The notes under the pieces were generated by a model. It was not told the DNA's origin and made no database searches. It worked only from the letters and a program-made list of their open reading frames with translations. The translations under genes were made by a program, and so were the position numbers. Of a DNA stretch of 64,000 nucleotides, positions 17,271 through 34,051 are shown one piece after another. Position 1 is the stretch's first letter. The number at the start of each line of letters is the position of its first letter. The stretch comes from Eubacteriales bacterium (GTDB taxonomy: Bacteria > Bacillota > Clostridia > Oscillospirales > CAG-272), in contig JAZQJQ010000138.1 of NCBI GenBank assembly GCA_045541735.1, forward strand, positions 11,034 through 75,033, written 5' to 3'.

Positions 17271-18700
17271 TTTACTGCATCTCCACTGTTAAAATTATAT
17301 ATTAACGAGTCTAAAAGCTCGCATCTGGCTGTTAAAAAGTCCGTTATCTGCTTTATTTGATCTACGCTTGCATTCGGCGCATCCGGGTAAAGCGTTGTTT
17401 CGTATTCATAGCATTCAAACGGAATGGACGAAATAAACTCACTGTACCGCGCAATAAGCTTTTCGGTAGCTAAGATATCCGACCTAAGCTCAGTATATCT
17501 TAGTTTAAAGCGCTCCGTATAGTTATTAAGTATTCTGTCCCACAGTAGGTTGTCCGTTCCCGAGGAGATCCTTCCCTCCTCCGTAACCGAAGGTAACGAG
17601 AAGTCGAACGGTAGATACCCGCTTCCGTCGAACACCAGTCCGCAGGCAGTGTCAAGATCATACAAATTCGGGATCCAGCGCTCGCCGTCGTAGGTAAGCA
17701 GGATCATATTTTTTGAAAAATTATCCGTTAGACCCAAAACGTAAGCTGTGATCAAATAGTCAATTGCCGCATCAACGTCAAGATGCTTTTCTATGCCCTC
17801 GGTAAAACTATCTCCGTCGTTTTCCATTACAAAACCGATAAGCCTATCCAAGCTGATATAAGGAGCTTCGGAGCTTTCATCGTAAGCATATTCAAGATCA
17901 AAAACTGCGGCTTTATCCTCTTCTGTCATCAACGACCTGAAGTTTGCGGCATCGGATCCGATGCTGTTTATTACGAACATCGCTTCGTTTTTATCATCAG
18001 CAATATCATAAGTAGAGTTATCCTTGGGAATATTGAAGGTGTACAGTCCCTGATATCTTCCGTTGATGAACAAGGCAACGGGAAATCCGTCAAGCCCGCC
18101 GGCAAATTCCAATCGCGCAATGTTATTATCAAGTTTTTTTCTGCTTAAAACCACGTCGCTCCAGATATTAGAAGAAACGATGTTTCTTGCACTGCTAAAG
18201 TCTATGTAATTCGCTTTTAAGTAATATTTATGGGTTGCATCCCATCCGTTTATGGAAACGTCGTTTTTTTCGTGCTTCTGATCGCTTTTATAAAACTGAA
18301 GCGTGTAATTTTTCTTATCAAAGAGTATCGAGGTATGTCCCTGATACCTAACGTTAACGTGAGACTCAAATACGGTATCGCTATCGTAATACTTAGCATA
18401 CAGCATAACCGCGGAGTCTTTGGCTATTCCGTCGATATTGCCGTCCAAATAAAGCTGCGGCAGTTTGACCGTTGCGTTGACCGTTTCGGTTATTTCAAAA
18501 TGGCATTTTACGCAATGCTTCACCTTTTCTCCGGGTCTGAAATCAGAGGGAGCAACCGTTTCCTTGAACTCCGAAAATGAGTGCTCGCATTCGGCATCCT
18601 TATGATCCGACAAAACGGGGGCGAGCAAAACAGTACCCGATATCAATAACAGCAACGTTACAAAAGAAACGACGTTACCGAGTTTATCGTGCTTTTTCAT
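17267..18700 (-). CDS. CotH-family atypical protein kinase, secreted or membrane-anchored
   Basis: CotH-like segments KYYLKANYIDFSSARN and NFSKNMILLTYDGERWIPNLYDLDTACG. N-terminal TM/signal MKKHDKLGNVVSFVTLLLLISG. Start moved to ATG 18700 behind SD gggaggg. Stop overlaps the start of the giant gene (ATGA at 17267-17270). Confidence 0.8.
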   Translation of the reverse strand: MKKHDKLGNVVSFVTLLLLISGTVLLAPVLSDHKDAECEHSFSEFKETVAPSDFRPGEKVKHCVKCHFEITETVNATVKLPQLYLDGNIDGIAKDSAVMLYAKYYDSDTVFESHVNVRYQGHTSILFDKKNYTLQFYKSDQKHEKNDVSINGWDATHKYYLKANYIDFSSARNIVSSNIWSDVVLSRKKLDNNIARLEFAGGLDGFPVALFINGRYQGLYTFNIPKDNSTYDIADDKNEAMFVINSIGSDAANFRSLMTEEDKAAVFDLEYAYDESSEAPYISLDRLIGFVMENDGDSFTEGIEKHLDVDAAIDYLITAYVLGLTDNFSKNMILLTYDGERWIPNLYDLDTACGLVFDGSGYLPFDFSLPSVTEEGRISSGTDNLLWDRILNNYTERFKLRYTELRSDILATEKLIARYSEFISSIPFECYEYETTLYPDAPNASVDQIKQITDFLTARCELLDSLIYNFNSGDAVK

Positions 18701-18741
18701 ATTACCCTCCCATCTTAATCGTATAATACTCCATATTATAT

Positions 18742-18770
18742 ATAATATCAACCTAAATTTATTTAGTCAA
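18742..18770 (-). promoter_or_regulatory. Putative sigma-A promoter of the CotH/giant-protein operon
   Basis: Minus strand TTGACT - 17 nt - TATTAT. Confidence 0.35.
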
Positions 18771-18814
18771 GCGATTAAAAAAAAATATACAGTTGAACAA
18801 GCTAAAAACATGAA

Positions 18815-18850
18815 AAAAGGCTCTGTTTCCAACACGGCACAGAGCCTTTT
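18815..18850 (-). terminator. Rho-independent terminator ending the T-box operon
   Basis: Inverted repeat aaggctctgt / acagagcctt, followed on the minus strand by TTTTCATGTTTTT. Confidence 0.6.
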
Positions 18851-18853
18851 AAC

Positions 18854-21314: not shown

Positions 21315-22703
21315 TTACTCCTCCTCGAACACTATCTTATTGAGTGCATTTATGTATGCTCTGATACTTGCGGCAACAATGTCGGTAGAGATACCGTTAC
21401 CGGAATAAAGCTTACCGTTATTACGCAGGCGGACAAGCGCCGAGCCGAGCGCTTCCTTGCCCTCGGTTACGGACTGTACCTGAAAGTCATCCAGCTCGTA
21501 GTGATAACCCACGCACTGTTCGATAGCGCGGAAAGCGGAATCAATGGGGCCGTCGCCAATACTTACACCGGATATCGTCTCGCCGTTGCATTTAAGAGTA
21601 ACTTGAGACATCGATCCTGTAAGATTACTGCTGTTAGTTGTATAATTATCAAGATGATATGTTGAAGGAGCCTGCATTGCAGAGCTTGCGATAAGTGCCT
21701 CAAGCTCCTTAGCTCCGACTGCATCCTTCTTTTCGCATACCTGGATCAGCGCCTTATGAACGTTTCCGCAATCGGAATCGGAAAGATCGTAGCCAAGCAG
21801 GCTGGCAGCCTGAGCCACTTGCGCTATCGTGCTATCTCCGTCAAGCAGGATCTTCTTCTTTTCGCTTACCGCGGAATCGTCCTCGTAAGCCTCATGATTA
21901 ATACTTGAAAGCATATCATCGATGCTTGCATGGATCTTTGTGTTGTTGAGCTTTGTTTCAGCATCTATTCTAGCTCCGCAAACACCGATCGCGTCGCAGA
22001 TAGCACCGGTTTGCAAAACGTCCTTGCCCGCCATCGCACACTTAACTCCGTCAGCACCGGAGCAAACGGCCGCAAGCGCAGATGCAACAGACATATTGAT
22101 ACGGTCCGATACCTGCACGTAAACTGGAATACCTACCGCACTCTTGAGCTTAGCGGCAAGAGATGCTATCTCCTCAGGCATTGCTATTCCCGCATCGTCG
22201 CACACGTTTACAGCAGTTGCGCCGTTCTCTTCTGCACTCTTAGCAACAGAAACGAGAAAATCAATATCCGTGCGCGTAGCGTCAAGCGCAGAAAACTCTA
22301 CGTCCGCGCAATAAGTTTTAGCAAAAGAAACAAGCTTGGCTATCTTATCGAGCATCTTTTCAGCCTTTACGTGATAGGTGTACTCCATCTGCACGGTCGA
22401 GGTAGGAAGCTCGATCTGGAGACGTGGATGCTTTGCATCTTTGACACATTCCCAAGCATTTGTGATCTCTTCCTCGCTGAATCCGGCAGGAATGACCACA
22501 GCGGCGTTCTGTACGTTCTTCGAAACTGTTTTGTAGATAATTGTATCTTCGCGCAGATTTTTTATGGGTGCAAGCTCTATCGCATCAACACCGATAGCAT
22601 CGGCGCAAGCCGCTATCGCTGTTTTTTCACGGAACAGAAGCGCAACTGCCCTATCCTCCGCAAGCTTTTTAAGCGTAATGTCCGAAACGTAGATCTTTTT
22701 CAT
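21315..22703 (-). CDS. 2-isopropylmalate synthase-like pseudoenzyme: degenerate HMGL/DRE-TIM catalytic domain with a retained LeuA-dimer (leucine-binding regulatory) domain
   Basis: Canonical DTTLRDGEQ is replaced by SDITLKKLAED, and canonical HxHNDxG by VQVSDRIN. The C-terminus keeps a LeuA_dimer-like segment: GDGPIDSAFRAIEQ...DDFQVQSVTEGKEALG...STDIVAASIRAYINALNKI. Confidence 0.7.
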   Translation of the reverse strand: MKKIYVSDITLKKLAEDRAVALLFREKTAIAACADAIGVDAIELAPIKNLREDTIIYKTVSKNVQNAAVVIPAGFSEEEITNAWECVKDAKHPRLQIELPTSTVQMEYTYHVKAEKMLDKIAKLVSFAKTYCADVEFSALDATRTDIDFLVSVAKSAEENGATAVNVCDDAGIAMPEEIASLAAKLKSAVGIPVYVQVSDRINMSVASALAAVCSGADGVKCAMAGKDVLQTGAICDAIGVCGARIDAETKLNNTKIHASIDDMLSSINHEAYEDDSAVSEKKKILLDGDSTIAQVAQAASLLGYDLSDSDCGNVHKALIQVCEKKDAVGAKELEALIASSAMQAPSTYHLDNYTTNSSNLTGSMSQVTLKCNGETISGVSIGDGPIDSAFRAIEQCVGYHYELDDFQVQSVTEGKEALGSALVRLRNNGKLYSGNGISTDIVAASIRAYINALNKIVFEEE

Positions 22704-22744: not shown

Positions 22745-23013
22745 CAAAAAAACGTTTTCGTCTCCTTGTTGACTCAAAGAGACGAAAACGTAATCAAATA
22801 ACATTTCCGCGGTACCACTCTTCTTCATCCAAACGGATGCCCTCAGATGCTATCACATCGCACTCTGTAACGGGAGTTCCCGTCCGCCCCTACTGCAAGT
22901 TCACGGCAGCCGCTCCGCGGTGAGTTCGGCAGATACTTCCCAATGCCTCGCACCAACCGACATCTCTCACCAGGCGAAGAAATCCGCTTACTATTCCGCA
23001 TCACTGCGTTTAA
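22745..23013 (-). promoter_or_regulatory. T-box riboswitch leader, probable Leu specifier CUC
   Basis: Minus strand reads ...GGUGAGAGAUG (AG bay)...GGUGCGAG...GCCGAA-CUC-ACC (specifier CUC at 22924-22922 followed by A)...AGAGUGGUACCGCGG (T-box motif, 22807-22820). Terminator hairpin acgttttcgtctc / gagacgaaaacgt (22752-22791) plus U7. Confidence 0.8.
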
Positions 23014-24788: not shown

Positions 24789-25634
24789 TCATTTCAAATA
24801 CGGTTTTGTCCTGCCGCCCATATAGTAGGCGAATACCTCAGGCTTATCTATTATCTCTCTCGCGAAAATCAGAAGCGCAATAAATGACGGCGTGGGACTA
24901 AAATGATACACTGTTTGCAGCTCGTCATCCATTTCTATCTGCGATGAATAGACTAAGCTGTATTTTTTTAGCGTTTTCAATATTTCGTTCGCTTTTTCAT
25001 ACTCGACCGCAAGATTTTTTACAAGCAATGCGGGAGTGAAGGCTTTTTTATGATCGCGCTTATACAAAAGCAAACATGCGTCCCAAAAAGCCTTATCGGA
25101 AAGCTCCTTGAAAAACAAAGGATAATCAATACCGTTAAAATAAGCAGCATCGCAGTTTTCGGGATCTTTCACGATCAAAAAATACTGAAGACGGTTTGCA
25201 ATACCCATACGAGTAAATCCGTCATTCTGCATTATCGACGAGTAATGCTGCACGTTCGCACCGATGCCTTTTTCATATTCTTCAATGCTGCACGTTCCGG
25301 CTGTGCTACTGTTTGGCATAAGGGCGCGTTCCATATCCCAGCAATAGTTAAATACAAGGTTTAGGCGCTTATCGCGTGCAGTCTCGCCGACCTTTTCCAT
25401 CAATGCGGATTGAAGATCTCTGTAATCTGTTACGCTTCTGCCAAACAAAAGATCAACTGAAACGGAAAAGAAGTCCGCAATCTTTGGCAGAAGGTCTGTG
25501 TCCGGTACTCCGCCGTTCTCCCATTTTGACACAGCCTGCGCACTTACCCCAACGTAATTTGCAAGTTCTTCCTGCGTTATTCCCTTCTCCTTGCGTAAAC
25601 GTGCGATCTGCCTGCCTATCATTTCTGTAGCCAT
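24789..25634 (-). CDS. XRE-family HTH transcriptional regulator with uncharacterised C-terminal domain
   Basis: IGRQIARLRKEKGITQEELANYVGVSAQAVSKWENG is a canonical HTH_3. Confidence 0.75.
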   Translation of the reverse strand: MATEMIGRQIARLRKEKGITQEELANYVGVSAQAVSKWENGGVPDTDLLPKIADFFSVSVDLLFGRSVTDYRDLQSALMEKVGETARDKRLNLVFNYCWDMERALMPNSSTAGTCSIEEYEKGIGANVQHYSSIMQNDGFTRMGIANRLQYFLIVKDPENCDAAYFNGIDYPLFFKELSDKAFWDACLLLYKRDHKKAFTPALLVKNLAVEYEKANEILKTLKKYSLVYSSQIEMDDELQTVYHFSPTPSFIALLIFAREIIDKPEVFAYYMGGRTKPYLK

Positions 25635-25752
25635 ATTCTTACTCCCTCAGTATTTCAAAAGCGTTTACTTTGGCTATATATTAGCACAATCGCCGGTTGA
25701 TTTCAATAGAGGTGACGTTGACGAAAACAAATGCAGGTTGAGTCCACCGAAA

Positions 25753-25797
25753 ACAATATGAAAACATATTGTAGCAAGCCTTTACACGTGATATAAT
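25753..25797 (+). promoter_or_regulatory. Palindromic operator overlapping a putative extended -10 promoter
   Basis: Perfect inverted repeat ACAATATG-aaaa-CATATTGT (25753-25772). TTGTAG (25769-25774) - 17 nt - TGaTATAAT (25789-25797). Confidence 0.4.
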
Positions 25798-25801
25798 ATG
25801 A

Positions 25802-25915
25802 TTACTTACCGAGCCGATGGTCACGCATACCTATACGCTTGCGAGAATCGACGAGGCATACGAGCTGTTTGAGAATAAGCGCGACGGTGTTATTAAGATC
25901 GTGGTGGAGTGTTGA
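25802..25915 (+). pseudogene. 3'-terminal remnant (37 codons) of a zinc-type alcohol dehydrogenase gene
   Basis: Frame opens just after a stop at 25799 and reads LLTEPMVTHTYTLARIDEAYELFENKRDGVIKIVVEC*. This resembles the conserved C-terminus of medium-chain dehydrogenases. No upstream body is present. Confidence 0.5.
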
Positions 25916-25950
25916 AAATAATGTGTGATAATTGCGAGGTGGTCCAAATA

Positions 25951-26799
25951 ATGATTTCTAAAAATTTTAAATTTTTATATAAGCATTTTAAAGATAAGCA
26001 AGAAGTATTGGCGAAAATGTTTAATGTCCCACAAAGCAATATTAGTGGATACATAAATGGAACGAAACCAATCCCTACAGATATTTTGCATAAAATCGCT
26101 ATTAGATATAGTGTAAGTGTTGATGATCTGGTTAATAAAGATATATCCTTGGAATTTGATACACCACAAACAATAGAGTTGAAAGACACCATGAATTTTA
26201 GCGAAAATATGTTTCCTATTCTTACCTCGAACATTGCCAAAACGAACGATAATTTTAATCGTGCACATAATATTTTGCTTGATACTTTACGATTGGATAC
26301 GCTGGATGCTTTTTACGGAAAAATTAATATATTAGAGCATGCCATAACTCTGTTTCAAAAGGCATGGAATGAATCTAAAAGTTATGTTGCACTATCTAAT
26401 TGTTTATCAACAATTTTGTTGATCTATACTTTTTATAGTCAGAGAGGCATCCATATTGGGCAGGAATTGATTAAAAAAGGAGCTTTAAGTTCATTTGATA
26501 TTGAAAGTAGTTTCCTTCGAGATCCAAGAAAACCCGAATCTACCAATCCATATGAAGAGAAACAAAAGACATTTTTTGAAAAATACGATGACCTTGTATA
26601 TGAAAGTATCAAGTCGTTGAAAGGTAATTCCCAATTTTCTGAGCTGGGTGATTATTATTTAGCAATGTGTTATTTTGTTGGCTTTGCAGAAGATTTTATA
26701 AAATATGAGGAATGCTCGCGCACAGGACTTTATATGCTTATTCAACTTAGTAAGATTGACAATAAATATGCAGACAAGTTTTTTGATACCATGCCTTAA
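25951..26799 (+). CDS. HTH (XRE-type) protein with about 210-aa helical C-terminal domain, in an AT-rich islet; possible RRNPP/Rgg-like regulator
   Basis: LAKMFNVPQSNISGYINGTKPIPTDILHKIAIRYSVSVDDLV is an HTH_3. Start set at ATG 25951 behind SD gaggtgg. Hand counts of lines 25921 and 25981 give 23% and 32% G+C, against 43% for line 25441 in the neighbouring regulator gene. Confidence 0.6.
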   Translation: MISKNFKFLYKHFKDKQEVLAKMFNVPQSNISGYINGTKPIPTDILHKIAIRYSVSVDDLVNKDISLEFDTPQTIELKDTMNFSENMFPILTSNIAKTNDNFNRAHNILLDTLRLDTLDAFYGKINILEHAITLFQKAWNESKSYVALSNCLSTILLIYTFYSQRGIHIGQELIKKGALSSFDIESSFLRDPRKPESTNPYEEKQKTFFEKYDDLVYESIKSLKGNSQFSELGDYYLAMCYFVGFAEDFIKYEECSRTGLYMLIQLSKIDNKYADKFFDTMP

Positions 26800-26909
26800 T
26801 TATCGTGAATCGCGATATTGTTGCCGTAAAAATCTATTGCCTTCATTTGCTAATAATGATAGAATATAAATGCAAACAACCAAATCATTAAACAAATGGA
26901 GGTGCATTT

Positions 26910-27269
26910 ATGTACGATGCTTGCGATGTATTACACGCTTCTTTTTGCTCCGCTGATGTAGCCAATCACGTTCTGCGCGAATATGGTGAAGGTAGCATGG
27001 GAAAAGGAATTCGAAAGTTAGCTGGGGAGATGCTAACAATCGGAGGACAACAGAGTTATGGTATCGGTTATGATGCAGGAGTTTCGGATACCTATCCGGC
27101 AGCATTTAAGGACGGTGCTGTGACAGGCTCAATCATTTGCGCTTGCGCAGTTGGTTTGATCGGATTCGGTGTTTGGTGCACCAAAAAACTAATTGAACAC
27201 CATAACGCAAAAAAAGAAGCAACCCAACTACTTACCGAAACTGCAGAGGAGGTGTCTGCTAATGCCTAA
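26910..27269 (+). CDS. Hypothetical protein with one C-terminal TM helix
   Basis: SD ggaggtg 6 nt upstream. Putative promoter TTGCCT...TAGAAT upstream. TM segment GSIICACAVGLIGFGVWC. No family recognised. Confidence 0.45.
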   Translation: MYDACDVLHASFCSADVANHVLREYGEGSMGKGIRKLAGEMLTIGGQQSYGIGYDAGVSDTYPAAFKDGAVTGSIICACAVGLIGFGVWCTKKLIEHHNAKKEATQLLTETAEEVSANA

Positions 27270-27447
27270 GAACAAACTGGATGCAGTCAATTTTTGTAAA
27301 ATACTTGACATGTTTGGAGAGGAAGCCGCAAGAGATACTCTCAAAGATGTTAACGATGGCAAAATTAGTGAAAAGACCATCGAAAAGTATCTTTACGATG
27401 AAACCGAAACAAAGGAGCAGTATGCAGAACGCCTCAAACGAGAGTAA
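27262..27447 (+). CDS. Hypothetical small acidic protein (61 aa)
   Basis: ATG 27262 preceded by SD gaggagg, overlapping the stop of the upstream ORF by 8 nt. The track version (27193) starts earlier in the same frame. Confidence 0.4.
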   Translation: MPKNKLDAVNFCKILDMFGEEAARDTLKDVNDGKISEKTIEKYLYDETETKEQYAERLKRE

Positions 27448-27492
27448 AATTTTCTACGCAGTAACCAAAGAAAAGCCAATTGAAAACAAAAA

Positions 27493-27530
27493 ACGGCGGT
27501 TCTCAGAGCAGAGAACCGCCGTCATTTTGC
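27493..27530 (+). terminator. Rho-independent terminator of the small-gene pair
   Basis: acggcggttctc / gagaaccgccgt, perfect 12-bp stem with 6-nt loop, then cATTTTg. Confidence 0.6.
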
Positions 27531-27700
27531 ATGAAATAAAAGTCTGAAAGTGCAGAAAATCCTTATGGAATATAGCCTTTTTGTGCCAAATGTGGTCAAA
27601 CATGTGGTCAAGCCTGTTTTTGAAGCCATTTTGGGCAAAAAAATAGCGGACATTTTCGAGGCGGTTCAAACACCAAAAAGCCCGAAAAAGCCCGTAAAAT

Positions 27701-27734
27701 TAAGAAAAACGAGGGTTCGTTATGAACCCTCGTT
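27701..27734 (-). terminator. Terminator directly after tRNA-Pro
   Basis: aacgagggttc / gaaccctcgtt hairpin (27708-27734), followed on the minus strand by TTTCTTAATTTT. Confidence 0.65.
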
Positions 27735-27735
27735 T

Positions 27736-27811
27736 TGGTCTGAGTGACAAGACTTGAACTTGCGGCCTCTACCACCCCAAGGTAGCGCGCTACCAGCTGC
27801 GCCACACCCAG
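27736..27811 (-). tRNA. tRNA-Pro (anticodon GGG), CCA encoded
   Basis: Minus strand CTGGGTG-TGGCGCAGCTGGTAGCGCG-CTACC-TTGGGGT-GGTAG-AGGCC-GCAAGTTCAAGTCTTGT-CACTCAG-A-CCA. 7-bp acceptor stem with the C1:G72 pair typical of bacterial tRNA-Pro. Anticodon loop TTGGGGT. T-loop GTTCAAGTC. Confidence 0.9.
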
Positions 27812-27902
27812 ACGCGCGTTCGTTTTGAAAGGCTATACCTACCGAGAAAGGCACGGCGGCTTCCATCAGGAAAACCAGTCAACTCGTTTTGGCGCGAGAT
27901 TG

Positions 27903-27931
27903 ATTATAGCACAGCAAGCCGGGGATGTCAA
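27903..27931 (-). promoter_or_regulatory. Consensus sigma-A promoter for tRNA-Pro
   Basis: Minus strand TTGACA (27931-27926) - 17 nt - TATAAT (27908-27903). Confidence 0.55.
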
Positions 27932-27990: not shown

Positions 27991-28692
27991 TCAACCAAGG
28001 AAGAATTTTTTGCGCAAGGATTCCTTTAACGGCTTTACGATACCTATAACGATCAACAACATACCAATGACAAACAGCGACGCAAAGGAACAAGCAGACC
28101 AAAAAACGGGCGACACGATCCCAAAGGTGACCCAGATCAAAAACTCAATAAGCACTGTCCACAGTCCGAGAGCTATGGTAGCTCCTCCAAAAATAAACAG
28201 ATATCCTCTCCGAATATAGCAGCAAAGCGAAACAACAGCGCAGCATATCATGCCGAAAGCGCCTGCAACGGGAAAGGCAAAAGAGAGAAACCAATTCCCT
28301 CCCGCCTGCTCAAGGTCTATATACAAGAGATACAGCAATATAGCCGCAAAATCACTGCCGACAAAAATAATCGGCGGTGCATGTTTGAACCAGCAAGGTA
28401 AAATAAGAATAATGTACCCAAGCAGCACACCGCCCGCAACAAGACCGGACCACGTTACGGTCGCATGCCACGCAAGCTCGAATATCACAGGCAAAACAAA
28501 GGGTATAAACCAAAGTATGCTGATAACGAACAGCAGTCCTCGTCTGTTATATTCCTCGGACTGAAATTCCTTATTGGGATAGGTAGGCTGCGCATCAGAC
28601 TGAGGCAGATCTGGGTGATATGCCCTTGTGTTGCAAACGGGGCAGAGCTTCTGCCCTTCCGACAGCTTTATACCGCAATTTACGCAATACAT
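27991..28692 (-). CDS. Zinc-ribbon domain protein with about 6 TM helices
   Basis: N-terminus MYCVNCGIKLSEGQKLCPVCNTR (CxxC...CxxC), then hydrophobic helices to the C-terminus. Confidence 0.6.
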   Translation of the reverse strand: MYCVNCGIKLSEGQKLCPVCNTRAYHPDLPQSDAQPTYPNKEFQSEEYNRRGLLFVISILWFIPFVLPVIFELAWHATVTWSGLVAGGVLLGYIILILPCWFKHAPPIIFVGSDFAAILLYLLYIDLEQAGGNWFLSFAFPVAGAFGMICCAVVSLCCYIRRGYLFIFGGATIALGLWTVLIEFLIWVTFGIVSPVFWSACSFASLFVIGMLLIVIGIVKPLKESLRKKFFLG

Positions 28693-28694
28693 AA

Positions 28695-30929
28695 TTACTC
28701 CCCTCCCCTTGTGTTACTTTCCGCTGTCGGCATAATGCCGAGCTCACGGAGTGCTTGGTATATTTCGTATTCAAGAACGGGCTCCGCAATATTACGGATA
28801 ATATTGAGTACGAGCTTTCCGTTATACGTTATTGCAGAGGTATTATACGGAGCGCTTGACTGTGAACCTAGCACAAAATCTAGTCTGTCCACGTAGCGCG
28901 CAAACTCATCGGGCATTTTTACGGCACCAAGATTAGAAAAGCTGAAGCAGGACTTTCGTTCGCCTACTGCATTGAATATCATCTTCATTACTATATCTTT
29001 TATAAAAAGCGGAACGAGCTTCATTGCAAGCGGCTTTTCGCTGTTTACGTTGGTAGCTATCATTGCCGCCATATTTTTTTCCGTTATCTGCAGTTTTAAC
29101 TGATGGTGCACTATCTCGCATATCTCATCAAATCCGTATTTGCCAAGCCGCGGATCAATTCCCGGTGTAGCGTACAACACGAAATTACGAAGCGAACGTG
29201 AAGGAAATATCTTACGCAAATTAACGGGAACACACACCTTGATCGGCAGATGTTTCTTTTTATTTAACACGCGTTTTTCCTGCACGCGCGCTGCCGCACT
29301 TATAAGAACTGAAGTAAGATAAGCCGTAACGGTCACACCGCGCTTTTTCGCCTCGTTCTTTACCGTTTCGGCATCAAGAATGAAACTTGTGTTCGTGCGG
29401 AACCCATCGACTTCGCGTTTACCTTTAATACGGAACGAGTTTGTGTCTGCCCGGGATGCGGGAGTGGGTCCGGCATATTTTTGAAAACTGTCCTCAAGCT
29501 CGGCTTCAGCCGGTTTTTCGAGGCGGTCAAGTACTCCGTTTCCTATAGGTACCTTTACACCGTGTTTCTGATAAAGATATTCGCTGACCAGCGTCTTTAA
29601 GAACACAAGTCCGCCGTTACCGTCTGTAAGTGCGTGGAAGAACTCGACTGCGATCCTTTTTTCATATACGATAACGCGGAAAGCACATTTGCTGATATCG
29701 TCAAACGGCATACGAGAAAGTGGGTACGGCTTTTCTTCAAGTATATCAGGCGCGCGGGGCACTTCCTCCAGATAATACCAAAACAGTCCGCGTCTTACGC
29801 GCATTGCAATTGAGGGGAAACGCCTTACTGTAACGTCGAGCGCGATCTTTAATACAGAAACGTCCACCTCCTCGCCAAGCGTTGCAGAGAGGCGGAAAAG
29901 ATTGCTCCAGTTGCGGCTCATTGACGCGGGAAATATTTTAGCCGCGTTATCGAGCGCAAGCCAGCGGAGCTTTTTTTGGCTGCTGATGTGCTTCTTTATA
30001 AAGTCGGATATCTTATCGAAATCCGATTCAAATTCCTTCAGACAGTATAGCACATAGCCGTGCCACATTCCCGGAGCCACAACAAGCTCGCTCTCCGCGC
30101 CGCTCCCAAGCAGCCGCTCGTGCATATTTGCGGCATCGTCAAGCATTATCTCGTCACTGCCTACAAAGATAAGAGACGGAGGCATATCGGAAAGGTCCGC
30201 AAACAGCGGGGACAAACGAGGATTGCTTTTTGTTATTCTATCGTTCTCCGCATCGTCATTTACACGGGGAAACACGTTCTTTCCGTCGGTTACCGAGCCG
30301 TACGCATAGCAGTCCGCAAAATACTTTAAACGCTCCGGCGTCATCGAAACGTCGTTTTTCAGATTCTGGATGTAAGAATTGCCGGATAGGGTGAGATCCG
30401 TCCACGGAGAGATCGCAATTATACCCGCAGGCATACTTCTTCCCTTTTCCTTCAATTTATCGCAAAGCGCGTAGCAAAGTCCTCCGCCCGCGCTCTCTCC
30501 GCATATCATTATTTGGGAAGCTTCGTAACCGCTTGAAAGCAAATATCCGTACGCATCGAGGCAGTCCTCAAGAGCAGTGGGGAAAGGATACTCCGGTGCA
30601 AGGCGGTAGGCACAGCAAAACACCTTGATGCCGCATTTTGCCGCAAGCACACTTCCAAATCCCTTAGCATAAGCAAGATTACCGCATATATATCCACCTC
30701 CGTGTAGGTATAGGATTACCCCCGCGGAAAGCTCGTCGATCGGAGTTATCATAGAGCACTCCATATTCGCAACACGGAAGTCCTCGTACTCCACCTCGCT
30801 TTTTTGAAAGCTTGCAAGCAGCGCACCGATGGCATCCTGCCCCTTGCGTACTGCGGAAAGGGAGCTTTTTTCAATGATCGGCTTGAATATACTCATCTGC
30901 GTGCGTATAAGCTTTTTTACGTAACGCAT
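28695..30929 (-). CDS. Fusion: HSL-type alpha/beta hydrolase (esterase/lipase) plus condensation/alcohol-acyltransferase-like domain
   Basis: N-terminal half: HGGGY oxyanion motif, GESAGG nucleophile elbow, downstream Asp and His (MWHGY). C-terminal half: FHALTDGNGG (HxxxDG acyltransferase motif) in an approx 410-aa domain. Confidence 0.75.
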   Translation of the reverse strand: MRYVKKLIRTQMSIFKPIIEKSSLSAVRKGQDAIGALLASFQKSEVEYEDFRVANMECSMITPIDELSAGVILYLHGGGYICGNLAYAKGFGSVLAAKCGIKVFCCAYRLAPEYPFPTALEDCLDAYGYLLSSGYEASQIMICGESAGGGLCYALCDKLKEKGRSMPAGIIAISPWTDLTLSGNSYIQNLKNDVSMTPERLKYFADCYAYGSVTDGKNVFPRVNDDAENDRITKSNPRLSPLFADLSDMPPSLIFVGSDEIMLDDAANMHERLLGSGAESELVVAPGMWHGYVLYCLKEFESDFDKISDFIKKHISSQKKLRWLALDNAAKIFPASMSRNWSNLFRLSATLGEEVDVSVLKIALDVTVRRFPSIAMRVRRGLFWYYLEEVPRAPDILEEKPYPLSRMPFDDISKCAFRVIVYEKRIAVEFFHALTDGNGGLVFLKTLVSEYLYQKHGVKVPIGNGVLDRLEKPAEAELEDSFQKYAGPTPASRADTNSFRIKGKREVDGFRTNTSFILDAETVKNEAKKRGVTVTAYLTSVLISAAARVQEKRVLNKKKHLPIKVCVPVNLRKIFPSRSLRNFVLYATPGIDPRLGKYGFDEICEIVHHQLKLQITEKNMAAMIATNVNSEKPLAMKLVPLFIKDIVMKMIFNAVGERKSCFSFSNLGAVKMPDEFARYVDRLDFVLGSQSSAPYNTSAITYNGKLVLNIIRNIAEPVLEYEIYQALRELGIMPTAESNTRGGE

Positions 30930-33478
30930 ATTCCCTCTCCTTTCCGGTTGTTCGGTATGTAATGGTTATTAAAAGTATACCACGAGAGGTAGTAAAATGC
31001 AACATAAAAATAGCCTATGCCGACACGCTCGATGTCTTCCGCTTTGGGTTTCTTTATTTTCGTTTTGTAAAACTGTTCCCTAAGAGCCTCATTTTCTGCC
31101 TTGAGCCGAATGTTTTCAAGGTTAAGCGCTTCGATGTCCTCGGAAGGCAGGATAACATCCGTATCCTCTGCGGAGTACAGAATATCCGAAGCAAGCACGC
31201 CAGCGGGTCTTGTGTCGTGTCCGAAATGTCGTAAAACGCCAGCGGGTAATATTTCAGGGAAATAGCTATTGACAAGAGAAAGCAAATCTGCTACACTGAT
31301 TTTAGAATCGGTAACGGATTGCGGGTTTCCCGTAGAACCGGGCGCATTTTGCGCAGCCGATTCTTTTTTTGCGTTTGCAGCATAAAGCACATCCATAGAC
31401 ACAAGCTCATTGTCAAAGCTGTTTACCACAAAACGCACTATGTACGCGTCCCCGTTTGTTTCCTGTGCCAAACCAACAAGGACATATGCTTTTTTTACAT
31501 CTTCGCGTTTTGGGTTGATTTCGTTTACCCTTACTGCGTTTTTAAGTATTTCTCCAACCTTTGGAACAACAACATAGTTCGGAGATGCGAAATTATTAGA
31601 TCTTGCAAGGCCGTGTCTTATTCCGTCCGCGCCAACAACAATATTACGTCCCACATCGTTGTTGTGTACGCTCGTTGTACCGTTCTCGCTAACCGTACCA
31701 ACGTCTGCCACGTTTTGCTTTCCTCTTAGGATTGCATCTTGTCTGCTGGTCGGTATACTCCCGTCAAGCTGAGTGATTTCCATATCGGGCTTACTTGCGA
31801 AATACTCGTAAGTGTACTTGCCAGGCAGGATAACATCCGTATCCTCTGCGGAGTAATACATATTATTGTCTCGCCTGTCGTAGGTACCTACATTATCCAC
31901 AGACTTTATTTGTGTAGGCTTGAACACTACAGTTTCTGTCGGAACAACAATACCATCAAACTTCGTTCCGTTAACCTTGTTGAATAGCTCCGATGCTTCT
32001 ACCATATCTCCGATCGCCGTTGCATTTATGTCAGTTATTACGGCAAAAGCATCGCGGCTTGTTATTCCTTTGAGAATTTCGTTCACATCATATGTGCCGT
32101 AATTCTCGATGGAATAATCCTCATTTTCTGCTACAGCTTCGAGGAACTTTCTTATCTGTTTTTCAGTAACAGTTGCAGACCCCTCTGACAGCGGATTCTT
32201 AACGTCAAGATAAACTGCATAAAGATTGCCATACTGCTTTGCATGGGTATCGCTGTCGGTAAAGTAAAAGCCCTTTCCGTAAAGTCCTGAGCTCTTTGCC
32301 TTTTTCTTATCGAATGCATAGAACTGATAAGGACTGCCGTGGTACATCACCTTTGGTGTTCCGTCCATATTTACGATCTTGCTTGCTTTTTGGGGAGAAT
32401 TCTGCCAATCGCCAAACCAACGCGTGAATTGTAACGATTTTGTTACATCGTCAACTAACATATTGACTTTTTCGGGGAACGGTCTTATAATAGTACCGGA
32501 AGCTGCCAATGTTTCTGTCAAACGTTTGGGGAATTGGACCCCTTCCGATGATAGGTTGGTTGCTTCTTTTTTTGCATAATATATGTTGTTATCTCCGGTG
32601 CTGGTCTGCGCGATCGCCTCATCGACCAATGCTTTTACGTTTTTGTCGTACGCAGAAGAGAGAACATTAACATCTATTCTGCTGCCTCCCACTTGCCTAA
32701 CCGTGCTTATTTCAACAGGCAATACAAGATGTTTTTCCGTTGTCCCGACATCAACTATAGCAACAACGCTGTGAGCGCTTCTCGTGGTTTTTGTCGGGTC
32801 TTCGCTTGCGGGCACATCCTTGGCCGCAATTATCATTAACGGGTCGGCCAAAGCTTCATAAAGCTTTTTCACCCTTGTATCTCCCATTCCGTGATAATGC
32901 ATTTTAGAGTTGTATCTACCCGCTTTTTTTGCGTCAGCTTCGGTTGTTGCGATAGAGTACACGTGTCCTGCGCCTATTGTGAACGGGAGACTTGGCATTC
33001 CAAGTTTGCGGAACAATTCGGGAGTGTAACCAAGCAACACAGCAGGATCGCCTTTGTATGTATTTGCCAAAATATCATCGACAGTTTTTTCGTATTCTGC
33101 TGTTATCTCTTTTTGTACCGCTTCGACACGTTCTTTGCTTCCGGGTAACATAACATCCGTTTCGCTCGCGCTATACATCCTCCCACCCTTTACCTCTGAG
33201 TCGTAAAGGTCCGAAACGAGCTCGACCATCTCGTCCTCCTCTGCGGGGGTGTTTTTTGTTTCTGTTGGTGTTTCCGCTTCGGAATCAGTTGGTTTTGTTT
33301 TGTTACCAACTGCATCGTTTTTCTCGGGCTTTGCGGTCTGCTCGGTTTCCTCGGCAAGCTCGGCTTCAAGCTTCGCATCAAGCTCCGCGCCGATCGCGGT
33401 TTCTTTCTTCGCTTCCTTCTTGCTTTCGGTCTTGCTTTCCTTCGCGGTCTTGACATCGCCCTTCGTTTCCTCGATCAA
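30917..33478 (-). CDS. Polyvalent-protein-like multidomain protein (nuclease-like module / ART-PolyVal-like ADP-ribosyltransferase module / second nuclease-like module); probably a fragment, start uncertain
   Basis: Central FTRWFGDWQNS...KVMYHGSPYQFYAFD...GLYGKGFYFTDSDTHAKQYG..YAVYLDVKNPL resembles ART domains of phage/ICE polyvalent proteins (from memory). The track start is a TTG with no SD and the frame is open upstream to 33559. The first ATG with a good SD (gaggagga) is at 33229. The C-terminal 30 aa look like read-through into flanking DNA. Confidence 0.6.
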   Translation of the reverse strand: MIEETKGDVKTAKESKTESKKEAKKETAIGAELDAKLEAELAEETEQTAKPEKNDAVGNKTKPTDSEAETPTETKNTPAEEDEMVELVSDLYDSEVKGGRMYSASETDVMLPGSKERVEAVQKEITAEYEKTVDDILANTYKGDPAVLLGYTPELFRKLGMPSLPFTIGAGHVYSIATTEADAKKAGRYNSKMHYHGMGDTRVKKLYEALADPLMIIAAKDVPASEDPTKTTRSAHSVVAIVDVGTTEKHLVLPVEISTVRQVGGSRIDVNVLSSAYDKNVKALVDEAIAQTSTGDNNIYYAKKEATNLSSEGVQFPKRLTETLAASGTIIRPFPEKVNMLVDDVTKSLQFTRWFGDWQNSPQKASKIVNMDGTPKVMYHGSPYQFYAFDKKKAKSSGLYGKGFYFTDSDTHAKQYGNLYAVYLDVKNPLSEGSATVTEKQIRKFLEAVAENEDYSIENYGTYDVNEILKGITSRDAFAVITDINATAIGDMVEASELFNKVNGTKFDGIVVPTETVVFKPTQIKSVDNVGTYDRRDNNMYYSAEDTDVILPGKYTYEYFASKPDMEITQLDGSIPTSRQDAILRGKQNVADVGTVSENGTTSVHNNDVGRNIVVGADGIRHGLARSNNFASPNYVVVPKVGEILKNAVRVNEINPKREDVKKAYVLVGLAQETNGDAYIVRFVVNSFDNELVSMDVLYAANAKKESAAQNAPGSTGNPQSVTDSKISVADLLSLVNSYFPEILPAGVLRHFGHDTRPAGVLASDILYSAEDTDVILPSEDIEALNLENIRLKAENEALREQFYKTKIKKPKAEDIERVGIGYFYVAFYYLSWYTFNNHYIPNNRKGEGICVT

Positions 33479-33523: not shown

Positions 33524-33551
33524 AAGGCTCTCGCGTATTCGCGAGAGCCTT
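33524..33551 (-). terminator. Hairpin after aroK
   Basis: aaggctctcgcg / cgcgagagcctt, perfect 12-bp stem with 4-nt loop. Weak U tract. Confidence 0.45.
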
Positions 33552-33562
33552 TCTGCTTTTTA

Positions 33563-34051
33563 TTAAAGTACCGCTACAATCTTACCCACGTTTTCGGTAA
33601 GAGATGCGTTGCAGACGTGGACGGTGATATCCGCATATTTTTCGTAAAGCGGCCTTCTTTGGGCGTACATATCCGCAAGAGTGCCGCCGCCGGGCATTAC
33701 CACTCCGCGGTGAGAATAGTCCCCAAGGCGCGAGAGCATCTCGTCATACGAAAGCTCAAGATATACAATTTTACCGAGCTTTTCCAGGTTTTGCATCGCC
33801 TTTTCTCCGTATATTACACTTCCGCCCGTGGCGATAACGGCGTTTGTTTCCGTAATCGAGGCGTTTACACGCTCCTCGATTTTAATAAATTCATTAACGC
33901 CGGCATCTGCAATTATTTCGTGCAAAAGCTTGCCTTCACTCTCCTGGATCAGTAGGTCGGAATCTATAAAACGGTAACCAAGCTGTTTTGCAAGCAGTAC
34001 GCCGAGGGTGCTTTTGCCGCATGACGGCATACCGATAAGTATTACTGACAT
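33563..34051 (-). CDS. aroK: Shikimate kinase
   Basis: ILIGMPSCGKSTLG P-loop, DSDLLIQ, 162 aa. Confidence 0.85.
   Translation of the reverse strand: MSVILIGMPSCGKSTLGVLLAKQLGYRFIDSDLLIQESEGKLLHEIIADAGVNEFIKIEERVNASITETNAVIATGGSVIYGEKAMQNLEKLGKIVYLELSYDEMLSRLGDYSHRGVVMPGGGTLADMYAQRRPLYEKYADITVHVCNASLTENVGKIVAVL

What the first reader, a model, noticed from the sequence alone, without database searches (positions are those of the whole stretch)
27991..33478. Operon of a polyvalent-protein fragment, an esterase::acyltransferase fusion and a zinc-ribbon membrane protein beside tRNA-Pro
Three minus-strand genes are linked by a 13-nt overlap and a 2-nt gap. The first encodes modules characteristic of the polyvalent proteins of phages and conjugative elements. 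One is an ART-like core (KVMYHGSPYQFYAFD...GKGFYFTDSDTHAKQYG..YAVYLDVKNPL). It is flanked by two domains resembling the barnase/EndoU/RelE-like nuclease modules of those proteins (…LPFTIGAGHVYSI…HYHGMG… and …GADGIRHGLARS…AYVLVGLAQETNGDAYIVRFVVN…). This identification is from memory and needs confirmation. The gene looks truncated at both ends. There is no ATG or SD at the annotated start and the frame is open upstream to 33559. The last ~30 aa (IGYFYVAFYYLSWYTFNNHYIPNN...) read like non-native sequence running into the next gene. Yet 853 codons remain intact. No other mobile-element genes surround it; aroK lies immediately upstream. This suggests a domesticated conflict-system remnant, now co-transcribed with a lipid or ester-modifying fusion enzyme and a membrane protein. 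That combination could be a toxin or effector module with a membrane-level partner.
Basis: partly seen in the sequence, partly recalled or inferred. Interest (0 to 1): 0.65.

Follow-up and report, generated by a model that had tools for sequence, protein, structure and literature searches.

The report
Decaying phage effector-gene fragment beside aroK
The 853-codon gene is an internal piece of a giant phage "polyvalent" effector gene stranded between the aroK terminator and the promoter of an unrelated, widely conserved enzyme/membrane-protein gene pair, so this is a phage remnant rather than a three-gene toxin operon.

Summary
The three minus-strand ORFs, the 13-nt overlap, the 2-nt gap, aroK and tRNA-Pro are all as described. 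The first ORF carries MuF_C and ART-PolyVal above Pfam cut-offs, plus a sub-threshold LPD3-like module.

It is truncated at both ends. In viral contigs the same modules lie in the middle of ORFs of 2,466-4,831 aa, next to internal-virion-protein and tail-fibre genes. Homology to native sequences stops at residue 819/820 (window ~31022). The last 34 codons run through the next gene's promoter and ribosome-binding site.

The operon and toxin-partner reading is not supported.
- No polyvalent homolog sits next to the fusion enzyme in 139 other loci.
- The acyltransferase-DUF6320 pair is conserved on its own (86 of 118 loci).
- The closest relatives form an allelic series at this junction: no insert (L001, L233), 2.5 kb (window), 1.4 kb with a different module (L072), and a ~260-nt stump (L234-236).
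- The fragment lies between a strong, covarying terminator hairpin and the enzyme gene's own promoter. It has no conserved start codon.

The intact frame, the retained catalytic residues and dN/dS of 0.06 in one shared segment keep a small chance of residual function. Overall this is an ordinary but well-documented phage remnant.

The parts
33563..34051 (-). aroK (shikimate kinase), the chromosomal gene upstream of the insertion
   Evidence: Pfam SKI E 6.6e-31. Directly abuts the enzyme gene in L001 and L233.
33524..33551 (.). Terminator hairpin (12-bp stem plus U-run) immediately after the aroK stop, lying inside the upstream-open frame of the PV ORF
   Evidence: Scan hit on both strands. dG -27.4 kcal/mol, z -6.2. 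Present in L072 and L234-236 with a compensatory stem change, absent in L001, L233 and L005.
30917..33478 (-). 853-codon ORF: internal fragment of a giant phage polyvalent (virion-delivered effector) gene
33179..33478 (-). Residues 1-100: K/E/T-rich low-complexity stretch with no conserved start codon
   Evidence: TTG33478 is TTA and ATG33229 is ACG in L072. dN/dS 0.38. Rarely matched by homologs.
33140..33178 (-). Linker repeat 1 (MYSASETDVMLPG)
   Evidence: Repeat family D1. Left border of the segment that differs between the window and L072.
32444..33121 (-). MuF-C (PBECR-type) module, residues ~120-345. Invariant H172, H196, D269 and N271 are retained.
   Evidence: Pfam MuF_C above cut-off. 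Conservation over 89 homologs. AF2 pLDDT 85. BFVD matches to phage MuF-C, polyvalent and 'nuclease' proteins, E 6e-10 to 5e-4.
31892..32368 (-). ART-PolyVal ADP-ribosyltransferase module, residues 371-529. H380, Y405/Y423 and D508 are retained.
   Evidence: Pfam E 3e-21. H-Y-D active site per PMC5512222. Column conservation.
31820..31858 (-). Linker repeat 2 (YYSAEDTDVILPG)
   Evidence: 43-nt direct repeat, 91% identical to linker 3 (D2). 31-nt match to the L072 linker.
31163..31822 (-). LPD3-like module, residues 553-772, function unknown
   Evidence: Pfam LPD3 E 5e-5, below cut-off. Homologs P0121-P0130. Found inside viral ORFs of 2,466-4,831 aa.
31142..31180 (-). Linker repeat 3 (LYSAEDTDVILPS)
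   Evidence: Right border of the window/L072 difference.
31022..31141 (-). Start of a coiled-coil module, residues 780-819, ending at the 3' breakpoint (...KAEDIERV)
   Evidence: Native continuation in P0131/L073 and in the L224 giant ORF. dN/dS 0.06 against L072.
30917..31021 (-). Non-native tail (34 codons plus stop): read-through across the enzyme gene's promoter and 5' leader
   Evidence: Homology to native sequence ends at ~31022. Same promoter architecture in L072, L234 and L005.
30974..31002 (-). Promoter-like element of the enzyme operon: TTGCAT (31002-30997), 17 nt, TGgTATACT (-10 at 30979-30974)
   Evidence: Read. Below the scan's 4-of-6 threshold for the -35, but positionally conserved as TTGATT-17-TATACT or TATAAT in L234 and L005. 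Inference.
30933..30942 (-). Ribosome-binding site AAGGAGAGGG for the enzyme gene's ATG at 30929
   Evidence: Conserved in the window, L072, L234, L005 and (GGAAAGGAG) L001/L233.
28695..30929 (-). Esterase::acyltransferase fusion. HSL-type esterase at residues 72-293 (HGGG 76, GESAG 144). Condensation-like acyltransferase at residues ~315-744 (HALTDG 432).
   Evidence: Pfam and NCBIfam. Motifs. More than 6,000 homologs.
27991..28692 (-). Zn-ribbon plus DUF6320 polytopic membrane protein, conserved partner of the acyltransferase
   Evidence: Pfam DUF6320 30.4 bits against cut-off 29.9, plus Zn_Ribbon_1. Adjacent in 86 of 118 loci.
27706..27931 (-). tRNA-Pro(GGG) with its own perfect promoter (27931-27903) and terminator (27736-27706). 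A separate transcription unit.
   Evidence: Adjacency is conserved only in L008.

Best explanation
The 853-codon ORF is a decaying internal fragment, about one quarter, of a giant phage polyvalent protein gene. In phages such proteins are 2,500-4,800 aa, are packaged in the virion and are injected with the DNA. They carry strings of effector modules, here MuF-C/PBECR, an H-Y-D ADP-ribosyltransferase and LPD3.

The fragment lies in a variable spot between aroK and a conserved two-gene unit made of a condensation-like acyltransferase (here fused to an HSL-type esterase) and a Zn-ribbon/DUF6320 membrane protein. It sits between a Rho-independent terminator that ends aroK transcription and the enzyme operon's own promoter and RBS. 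Its stop codon overlaps the enzyme gene only because the broken frame happens to stay open across that promoter.

Related lineages show the same insertion at different stages of reduction. Some changes are bounded by a 40-nt in-frame linker repeat (YSAEDTDVILP), which can delete or swap modules without breaking the frame.

Shown here: domain identity, both truncations, the breakpoint, the absence of co-occurrence, and the allelic series. Inferred: that the fragment is transcriptionally near-silent, that it has no role in the function of the downstream enzyme pair, and that the enzyme pair acts on a membrane or envelope acyl ester.
For: (1) Domains: ART-PolyVal and MuF_C are above Pfam cut-offs and LPD3 is just below. 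PHROG hits are to positions 519-688 of a 1,664-position profile and 1859-1923 of a 2,900-position profile.

(2) Native context: 69 IMG/VR loci carry the MuF-C+ART module. The ORFs holding it are 2,741-3,590 aa and the module lies at aa ~1,050-2,300. Neighbours are internal virion protein (phrog_511), endolysin and tail fibre. The LPD3-like module is likewise internal to viral ORFs of 2,466-4,831 aa.

(3) 3' breakpoint: the window and L072 follow the native DNA of L073 up to ...GAGCGYGT (ERV), then diverge completely. P0131 and the L224 giant ORF show the native continuation.

(4) 5' end: the frame is open to the aroK stop through the hairpin. The candidate starts are not conserved in L072, and no promoter-like site lies on the minus strand upstream.

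(5) No co-occurrence: 0 of 139 enzyme loci have a PV hit, while DUF6320 follows the acyltransferase in 86 of 118 loci with room downstream. The esterase is fused in 32, separate in 29 and absent in 60.

(6) Allelic series: L001 and L233 have aroK, 45-58 nt, then the enzyme gene, with no hairpin. L072 has the same junctions but a different 0.8-kb module. L234-236 have the hairpin, ~260 nt of PV-derived sequence and the promoter. L005 has unrelated GH32, HTH and ABC genes there.

(7) Terminator: dG -27.4, z -6.2, with a compensatory stem change in L234.

(8) No other PV or phage sequence occurs in the window. There is no defence-system match.
Against: The ORF is intact for 853 codons and keeps every invariant residue of the MuF-C and ART modules. 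Under neutrality, P(no stop) is about 0.005 at 5% divergence.

L072's variant is also open, for 479 codons. The 53 codons shared with L072 before the breakpoint show dN/dS 0.06, with 13 synonymous and 4 non-synonymous changes (binomial p 2e-6). That means coding constraint acted somewhere in their history.

An ATG (window) or TTG (L072) is present at linker 1 in both. Expression was not measured. The promoter call rests on consensus resemblance and positional conservation only.
Confidence: 0.74

Rival explanations
1. A domesticated conflict-system remnant is co-transcribed with the esterase::acyltransferase and the membrane protein, forming a toxin or effector module with a membrane-level partner.
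For: The 13-nt overlap and 2-nt gap give an operon-like geometry. The catalytic residues are intact. The same three genes are contiguous in L072.
Against: 0 of 139 other enzyme loci carry a PV gene, and the pair is conserved without it. The closest relatives lack the insert or keep only 260 nt. A terminator lies upstream and the enzyme operon's own promoter lies inside the ORF's tail. The overlap is produced by read-through of non-native sequence. There is no PADLOC match.
Confidence: 0.05
2. A stand-alone, still functional chromosomal effector or toxin, for example an abortive-infection or superinfection-exclusion factor. It would be translated from an internal start (M84 or M101), independently of the downstream genes, and kept by selection in some lineages.
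For: The ORFs are intact in two lineages, and the shared C-terminal segment has dN/dS 0.06. All invariant H/D/N and H-Y-D residues are present. GGAGG lies 5 nt before ATG 33229. A start codon at linker 1 is present in both alleles. Similar solitary PV genes occur among housekeeping genes in other Clostridia (L074, L075, L232).
Against: No promoter-like site was found and a strong terminator lies upstream. ATG 33229 is ACG in L072. The GGGAGG before M101 abuts the start codon with no spacer. The sister lineage L234 tolerates loss of nearly everything. There is no adjacent immunity or antitoxin candidate. The selection signal can instead come from alleles that diverged in phages and were imported by recombination: the promoter and tail are 99% identical between the window and L072 while the flanking genes are 81-87% identical.
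Confidence: 0.13
3. An orphan cassette reservoir. The promoterless, 5'-truncated fragment persists because its conserved in-frame linker repeats let it exchange effector modules with the giant polyvalent genes of infecting or resident phages. This would be analogous to orphan CdiA-CT or Rhs toxin cassettes.
For: Module differences between the window and L072 are bounded by the linker repeats. A related gene with 86.5% nt identity and the native continuation exists in nature (L073). Divergence along the locus is mosaic.
Against: No full-length polyvalent gene is in the window. No benefit to the host is apparent. The same pattern is expected from simple deletion between repeats in a decaying fragment. 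Only two informative alleles are available.
Confidence: 0.06

Closest known systems
Polyvalent proteins of phages and conjugative elements (Iyer, Burroughs, Anand, de Souza, Aravind 2017, PMC5512222). Specifically the giant virion-packaged type seen in IMG/VR contigs L079-L141 and L223-L230.
   Same: It has the same Pfam modules in one polypeptide: MuF_C (a PBECR clade), ART-PolyVal with the H-Y-D configuration, and an LPD3-like module. It shows 32-56% identity to the middle of viral ORFs of 2,466-4,831 aa that lie beside internal-virion-protein and tail-fibre genes.
   Different: It is only 853 aa, an internal piece with no native N- or C-terminus. It has no MPTase or other processing peptidase and no virion or T4SS gene context. 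It is chromosomal, lying between a terminator and another gene's promoter.
Prophage and mobile-element remnants (pseudogenised fragments) in bacterial chromosomes
   Same: The insertion is lineage-specific, both ends are truncated, close relatives form a graded series of deletions, and the region is tolerated as absent.
   Different: The frame is unusually long and intact with catalytic residues preserved. No second phage gene survives beside it. Some reductions are in-frame and occur at a repeated linker.
Orphan toxin cassettes of CDI (CdiA-CT) and Rhs/polymorphic toxin loci
   Same: It is a promoterless, 5'-truncated effector-coding piece that retains a short conserved junction motif at which modules differ between strains. 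This comparison rests on my knowledge of those systems and was not tested here.
   Different: There is no full-length gene nearby, no immunity gene, and no secretion-system context. The parent gene is a phage virion protein and not a bacterial toxin.
HSL-family esterases (Abhydrolase_3, GESAG subfamily) and condensation-superfamily O-acyltransferases (AATase, PapA5, WS/DGAT-like)
   Same: HGGG and GESAG motifs are present with Abhydrolase_3 E 8e-47. An HxxxD motif (FFHALTDG) is present with weak AATase, PapA_C and PapA5 hits. The motifs are kept in 114-119 of 120 homologs.
   Different: The acyltransferase half scores below every curated cut-off and has no PDB relative by sequence. Its fixed partner is an uncharacterised DUF6320 membrane protein, for which no paper was found. 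The substrate is unknown.

Membership tests
Polyvalent protein (sensu Iyer et al. 2017) | Two or more distinct effector-type domains in one polypeptide | tested here: met
   MuF_C, ART-PolyVal and an LPD3-like module.
Polyvalent protein (sensu Iyer et al. 2017) | Encoded by a phage (virion gene context) or a conjugative element (T4SS context) | tested here: not met
   The window neighbours are aroK, CYTH, metY/metA, thymidine kinase and similar genes. Only the homologs in IMG/VR have a virion context. The window copy is therefore a derivative, not a working member.
Polyvalent protein (sensu Iyer et al. 2017) | Complete gene with native termini, often with a processing peptidase (MPTase) | tested here: not met
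   There is no peptidase hit. The modules are internal in native ORFs of 2.5-4.8 thousand aa. The 3' breakpoint is at residue 819/820.
ART-PolyVal (PF18760) | Score above the Pfam gathering threshold | tested here: met
   77.1 bits against 31.2.
ART-PolyVal (PF18760) | H-Y-D active-site configuration (PMC5512222) | tested here: met
   H380 (97% conserved), Y405 (Y or F in 96%) and Y423 (93%), and D508 (100%) are all present in the window protein. Assignment of these columns to strands 1, 2 and 5 is inferred.
ART-PolyVal (PF18760) | NAD-dependent ADP-ribosyl transfer | not testable with these tools
   Needs a biochemical assay.
MuF_C / PBECR (PF18819) | Score above the Pfam gathering threshold | tested here: met
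   31.5 bits against 27.6.
MuF_C / PBECR (PF18819) | Barnase/EndoU/ColE5/RelE-like fold | tested here: inconclusive
LPD3 (PF18798) | Score above the Pfam gathering threshold | tested here: not met
   23.9 bits against 27, E 5e-5. The match is treated as LPD3-like only.
PBECR nuclease, claimed for the second flanking domain | Any sequence, profile or structural link to BECR or MuF-C domains | tested here: not met
   No PBECR hit. hhalign against the MuF-C profile gives probability 2%. No PDB hit. The AF2 model is unusable.
Three-gene operon or functional module | Conserved co-occurrence of the three genes across genomes | tested here: not met
   0 of 139 loci. The only other case, L072, shares the same insertion.
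Three-gene operon or functional module | Single transcription unit, with no internal promoter or terminator separating members | tested here: inconclusive
   Consensus and comparative evidence shows a terminator upstream of the PV ORF and a promoter inside its tail. No transcript data are available.
Acyltransferase-DUF6320 gene pair | Adjacent, same strand, conserved across genomes | tested here: met
   86 of 118 loci with room downstream. The 32 exceptions are all relatives at 33% identity or less, where tblastn may miss the partner.
HSL-type esterase (Abhydrolase_3) | HGGG oxyanion motif and GxSxG nucleophile motif | tested here: met
   HGGG at residue 76 and GESAG at residue 144. Abhydrolase_3 E 8e-47. 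NCBIfam GESAG_HSLs scores 191 bits, below the subfamily cut-off of 430.
Condensation-superfamily acyltransferase (AATase/PapA5-like) | HxxxD catalytic motif and a family score above cut-off | tested here: inconclusive
   HALTDG is present at residue 432 and conserved in 114 of 120 homologs. AATase scores 17.2 against 22 and PapA_C 16.8 against 30.
Known anti-phage defence systems (PADLOC) | A match to any defence-system protein model | tested here: not met
   Only a 40-residue, E 1e-3 hit of the ART core to candidate PDC-M13B. Nothing for the other two proteins.

The most novel reading that the evidence does not exclude
The fragment is not dead. It would be a maintained, promoterless cassette of phage effector modules, kept in frame by recombination at the conserved YSAEDTDVILP linker repeats. 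It would either trade modules with the giant polyvalent genes of incoming phages (an orphan-cassette reservoir outside any toxin locus) or be translated at low level as a chromosomal ART/RNase toxin that acts in phage exclusion. Solitary polyvalent fragments recur among housekeeping genes in other Clostridia (L074, L075, L232). That would then reflect a general process rather than random debris.
Probability: 0.1. Interest if true: 0.6.

Novelty: new member of a known kind. Interest (0 to 1): 0.25.

Why it matters
As a single locus it matters little. It is a phage-gene remnant, and the downstream genes are an independent, widespread enzyme/membrane-protein pair. It has three modest uses.

1. 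It is a clean worked example of how an operon-like overlap can arise when a broken frame reads through the next gene's promoter. This is a warning for annotation-based operon and toxin-partner calls.

2. The allelic series (none, 2.5 kb, 1.4 kb, 0.26 kb) and the in-frame linker repeats show how the modules of polyvalent proteins are shuffled and lost.

3. The acyltransferase-DUF6320 pair has more than 6,000 homologs of the enzyme and no literature on DUF6320. It is a common, uncharacterised envelope or lipid-related unit of gut Clostridia that may deserve study in its own right.

Tried and rejected
- **Exact look-ups.** The window's PV and enzyme proteins are not on record in public assemblies.
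- **Tail and coil DNA patterns.** Exact scans found nothing in metagenome contigs or viral contigs. blastn of the whole insert against 50,697 phage records also found nothing. The immediate donor is therefore not in these collections.
- **Close relatives in metagenomes.** The metagenome scan with the enzyme found none, with a best identity of 62%. It was used only for co-occurrence counts.
- **Structure of the LPD3-like module.** pLDDT was 42, so no fold search was attempted.
- **Tail as part of the inserted DNA.** I first thought the 102-nt tail might belong to the insertion, because L001 lacks it. I rejected this after L005 and L234 showed the same promoter architecture upstream of the enzyme gene without that junction.
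- **Junction repeat as att or target-site duplication.** An 8-nt direct repeat TTTAATAA (TACTTT[T]AATAA with one indel) lies at the aroK stop and at the -10 region. It is too short and AT-rich to separate from chance.
- **tRNA-Pro as an integration site.** Its adjacency is conserved only in L008, and the tRNA has its own promoter and terminator. It has no link to the PV fragment.
- **Regulatory RNA in the conserved tail.** No Rfam family matches it at gathering thresholds.

Full report
**1. Observation**

The minus strand carries three ORFs.
- An 853-aa ORF at 30917..33478, with a TTG start.
- A 744-aa ORF at 28695..30929.
- A 233-aa ORF at 27991..28692.

These coordinates give the stated 13-nt overlap and 2-nt gap. 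tRNA-Pro(GGG) lies at 27736..27811. aroK (Pfam SKI, E 7e-31) lies at 33563..34051. The long ORF's frame is open up to 33559, directly after the second TAA of aroK's TAATAA.

**2. Domain identities**

- ART-PolyVal, residues 371-529: E 3e-21, 77 bits against a cut-off of 31.
- MuF_C, residues 191-306: E 2e-7, 31.5 bits against 27.6.
- LPD3, residues 601-689: E 5e-5, 23.9 bits, just below the cut-off of 27.

PHROGs places the ART region in the middle of profiles 1,664 and 2,900 positions long.

The founding paper on these proteins (PMC5512222) makes three relevant statements.
- The ART of polyvalent proteins has an H-Y-D active site.
- The LPD domains have no known function.

In an alignment of 89 homologs, several residues are invariant or nearly so, and the window protein retains all of them. 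In the MuF-C part these are H172, H196, D269 and N271. In the ART part they are H380, Y405/Y423 and D508.

An AF2 model of the MuF-C module is confident (pLDDT 85). It matches predicted phage MuF-C, polyvalent and "nuclease" proteins. It matches no solved structure, so I could not verify the BECR fold myself.

- There is no PBECR hit.
- There is no profile relation to MuF-C.
- There is no PDB relative.
- The structural model is unusable.

**3. It is an internal fragment**

The MuF-C+ART module occurs in 69 viral contigs. The open frames that contain it there are 2,741-3,590 aa long, and the module sits at about aa 1,050-2,300. The neighbours are an "internal virion protein" (phrog_511), an endolysin and tail-fibre genes.

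The LPD3-like module is likewise internal to viral ORFs of 2,466-4,831 aa. The native gene is therefore a giant virion-packaged effector protein, and the window holds roughly a quarter of one.

*The 3' end.* The 3' breakpoint can be placed to within a codon.
- P0131 and its DNA (L073) match the window at about 87% nucleotide identity up to ...AAAGCGGAAGACATCGAGCGTGT (…KAEDIERV).
- After that, P0131 continues LMRITKNFELSEED…, while the window switches to unrelated sequence at ~31022/31021.
- A viral giant ORF (L224) continues for about 1,500 aa past the same point.

*The 5' end.* The frame runs back through a hairpin to the aroK stop, with no promoter-like site on that strand. TTG 33478 is TTA there and ATG 33229 is ACG.

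**4. What the "non-native tail" is**

The last 34 codons (31021-30917) contain three elements read directly from the sequence.
- TTGCAT (31002-30997), a 17-nt spacer, and an extended -10 TGgTATACT (-10 at 30979-30974).
- An AAGGAGAGGG ribosome-binding site.
- The enzyme gene's ATG at 30929.

The same architecture lies upstream of the enzyme gene in L234 (TTGATT-17-TGaTATACT) and in L005 (TTGATT-17-TATAAT). L005 has no polyvalent DNA at all. So the tail is the enzyme operon's own control region, and the 13-nt overlap is an accident of read-through. The promoter call is an inference from consensus and positional conservation. The -35 has only 3 of 6 matches and was not listed by the scan.

**5. 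The upstream hairpin**

Positions 33551-33524 form a 12-bp GC-rich stem followed by UUAUUGUUU. It folds at dG -27.4 kcal/mol, with a z-score of -6.2 against shuffles.

The hairpin is present in all three alleles that carry polyvalent DNA. In L234 it has a compensatory stem change (GGCTCTTGC/GCAAGAGCC against GGCTCTCGCG/CGCGAGAGCC). It is absent where aroK abuts the enzyme gene (L001, L233). The fragment thus lies in a pocket between a terminator and a promoter.

**6. Comparative genomics of the three genes**

I collected 146 loci encoding relatives of the enzyme from species-representative genomes and from metagenomes. The counts are as follows.
- In 139 loci the C-terminal part of the acyltransferase half was matched, and these were analysed.
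- None of them has any polyvalent homolog.
- DUF6320 follows the acyltransferase within 400 nt in 86 of the 118 loci with enough room downstream. The 32 exceptions are all distant relatives at 33% identity or less.
- The esterase half is fused in 32 loci, a separate adjacent ORF in 29, and absent in 60.

The enzyme family has more than 6,000 members at E≤1e-100. Sources name them "alpha/beta hydrolase" or "acetyl esterase/lipase/NRPS condensation-like". The HGGG, G[DE]SAG and FFHxxxDG motifs are kept in 114-119 of 120 homologs. The conserved functional unit is therefore the acyltransferase plus DUF6320, with the esterase as an optional addition. The polyvalent gene is not part of it.

**7. The allelic series at the aroK|enzyme junction**

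| Allele | What lies between aroK and the enzyme gene |
|---|---|
| L001 (92% aa), L233 (91% aa) | 45-58 nt; no hairpin, no promoter |
| Window | Hairpin, 2.5-kb fragment, promoter |
| L072 | Same two junctions (88% and 84% nt identity), but the ~2 kb between linker 1 and linker 3 is replaced by a different 0.8-kb MuF-C-like module; frame open for 479 codons |
| L234, L235, L236 (89% aa; sisters of L072 at 91-95% nt) | Hairpin, ~260 nt of polyvalent-derived sequence, promoter |
| L005 | GH32 lipoprotein, HTH regulator and two ABC exporter genes |

The ~260 nt in L234-236 is made of two pieces. About 35 codons match L072's module, and about 45 codons match window 32572-32451 at 88% identity.

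This is the pattern of an insertion being whittled away, in a spot that tolerates variable content.

**8. Linker repeats**

The motif [LMY]YSA[SE][ED]TDV[MI]LP[GS] occurs three times, at residues 101, 541 and 767. At the DNA level two copies share a 43-nt repeat that is 91% identical. The window/L072 difference is bounded by these repeats. Recombination between them would delete or swap modules in frame, which helps explain why reduced alleles can still be open.

**9. Evidence that cuts the other way**

Several observations speak against simple neutral decay.
- 4.2% of possible substitutions in the ORF create a stop. P(no stop) is therefore about 0.005 at 5% neutral divergence and 2e-5 at 10%.
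- The 53 codons before the breakpoint differ from L072 by 13 synonymous and 4 non-synonymous changes. That gives dN/dS 0.06 and a binomial p of 2e-6.
- The N-terminal 127 codons give dN/dS 0.38 (p 0.01).

So coding constraint has acted somewhere in the history of these sequences.

However, the divergence along the locus is mosaic.

| Segment (window against L072) | Divergence |
|---|---|
| aroK | dS 0.65 |
| PV N-terminal segment | dS 0.19 |
| PV C-terminal segment | dS 0.54 |
| Tail | 1 difference in 102 nt |
| Enzyme gene | dS 1.31 |

L072's tail and promoter resemble the window's far more than those of its own sister L234. This points to recombination between lineages, or with phage copies that evolve under selection. 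That would produce both the low dN/dS and the young, intact modules without any selection in the host. I cannot separate these possibilities with the data available. I therefore leave about 0.13 for a still-functional stand-alone gene and about 0.06 for a cassette-reservoir role.

**10. Other tests of the conflict-module idea**

- PADLOC gives no meaningful hit for any of the three proteins.
- The window contains no other polyvalent or phage-like sequence.
- tRNA-Pro has its own perfect promoter and terminator. Its adjacency is shared only with the nearest relative L008.

**11. Mechanism proposed**

*Shown.* A piece of a phage polyvalent effector gene lies downstream of aroK. It is truncated at both ends. 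It is absent or reduced in close relatives. It is unconnected in distribution to the downstream pair.

*Inferred.*
- aroK transcription stops at the hairpin.
- The fragment is largely untranscribed.
- The enzyme and DUF6320 genes are transcribed from the promoter inside the fragment's tail.
- The pair acts on an ester-linked acyl group at the membrane. The esterase would remove it and the HxxxD acyltransferase would add it, with the six-helix DUF6320 protein serving as membrane partner.

The last point is speculative. It rests only on family resemblance.

**12. Verdict**

The interpretation as a domesticated three-gene toxin or effector operon is not supported. The locus is a new example of a known kind of thing, a remnant of a phage polyvalent protein gene. 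It is of low general interest apart from the neat allelic series and the linker-mediated module loss.

Noticed in passing
L074 8435-11083; L075 1956-4148; L232 8001-11543 (compare L077); L076 7872-10964; L077 10001-14338: Solitary polyvalent-gene pieces of 330-1,445 aa recur among housekeeping genes in other Clostridia. Examples lie between PPIase and rpsO, and between Mn-catalase and pspC, where the syntenic L077 has none. Some sit next to a tyrosine integrase. Several begin inside a zincin HExxH motif or end in odd Cys/aromatic tails, so they look like fragments too. Whether polyvalent genes are over-represented among phage debris was not tested.
   Followed up: partly
window 33140-33178, 31820-31858, 31142-31180: A conserved linker, YS[AS][ES][DE]TDV[MI]LP[GS], marks every module boundary. 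Two copies are a 43-nt, 91% identical direct DNA repeat. Looser versions of the motif (...NPDIRYS..., KYSLS) end the ART module across the family. It could be a recombination hotspot or a processing site.
   Followed up: partly
146 loci L001-L071 and L148-L222; window 27991-29987: The condensation-like acyltransferase and the Zn-ribbon/DUF6320 membrane protein form a very widespread conserved gene pair in gut and rumen Clostridia. The HSL-type esterase is fused, separate or absent. No paper mentions DUF6320.
   Followed up: partly
P0076 / L231 8001-10511: One homolog is an ORF that joins MuF_C and ART-PolyVal to the C-terminal third of a tyrosine recombinase (Phage_integrase profile positions 104-171). 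It sits at a contig end next to sugar-transport genes. It may be a fusion created by insertion or recombination.
   Followed up: no
window 33560-33570 and 30966-30978: An imperfect direct repeat TACTTT(T)AATAA lies at the aroK stop codon and again at the -10 region of the enzyme promoter, so it brackets the inserted DNA. It could be a relic of an attachment site or target duplication, or it could be chance in AT-rich sequence.
   Followed up: partly
window 24789-27700: The region on the other side of tRNA-Pro has two XRE-type HTH genes (24789-25634, 25909-26799) and several small unannotated ORFs. GC content dips to 33% at 26001-27000, against about 46% elsewhere. It is not shared with L001 or L005. 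It may be a small island next to the tRNA gene.
   Followed up: no
window 22775-23013 (-): A T-box leader (Rfam, 122 bits) lies upstream of the LeuA/HMGL-like gene at 21315-22703.
   Followed up: no
window 9924-21313 (-): A 2,448-aa BspA-type leucine-rich-repeat surface protein is followed by a CotH kinase-like protein. Next comes an unusual fusion of a xylose-isomerase-like TIM barrel (AP_endonuc_2) with an AMP-binding (adenylating) enzyme.
   Followed up: no
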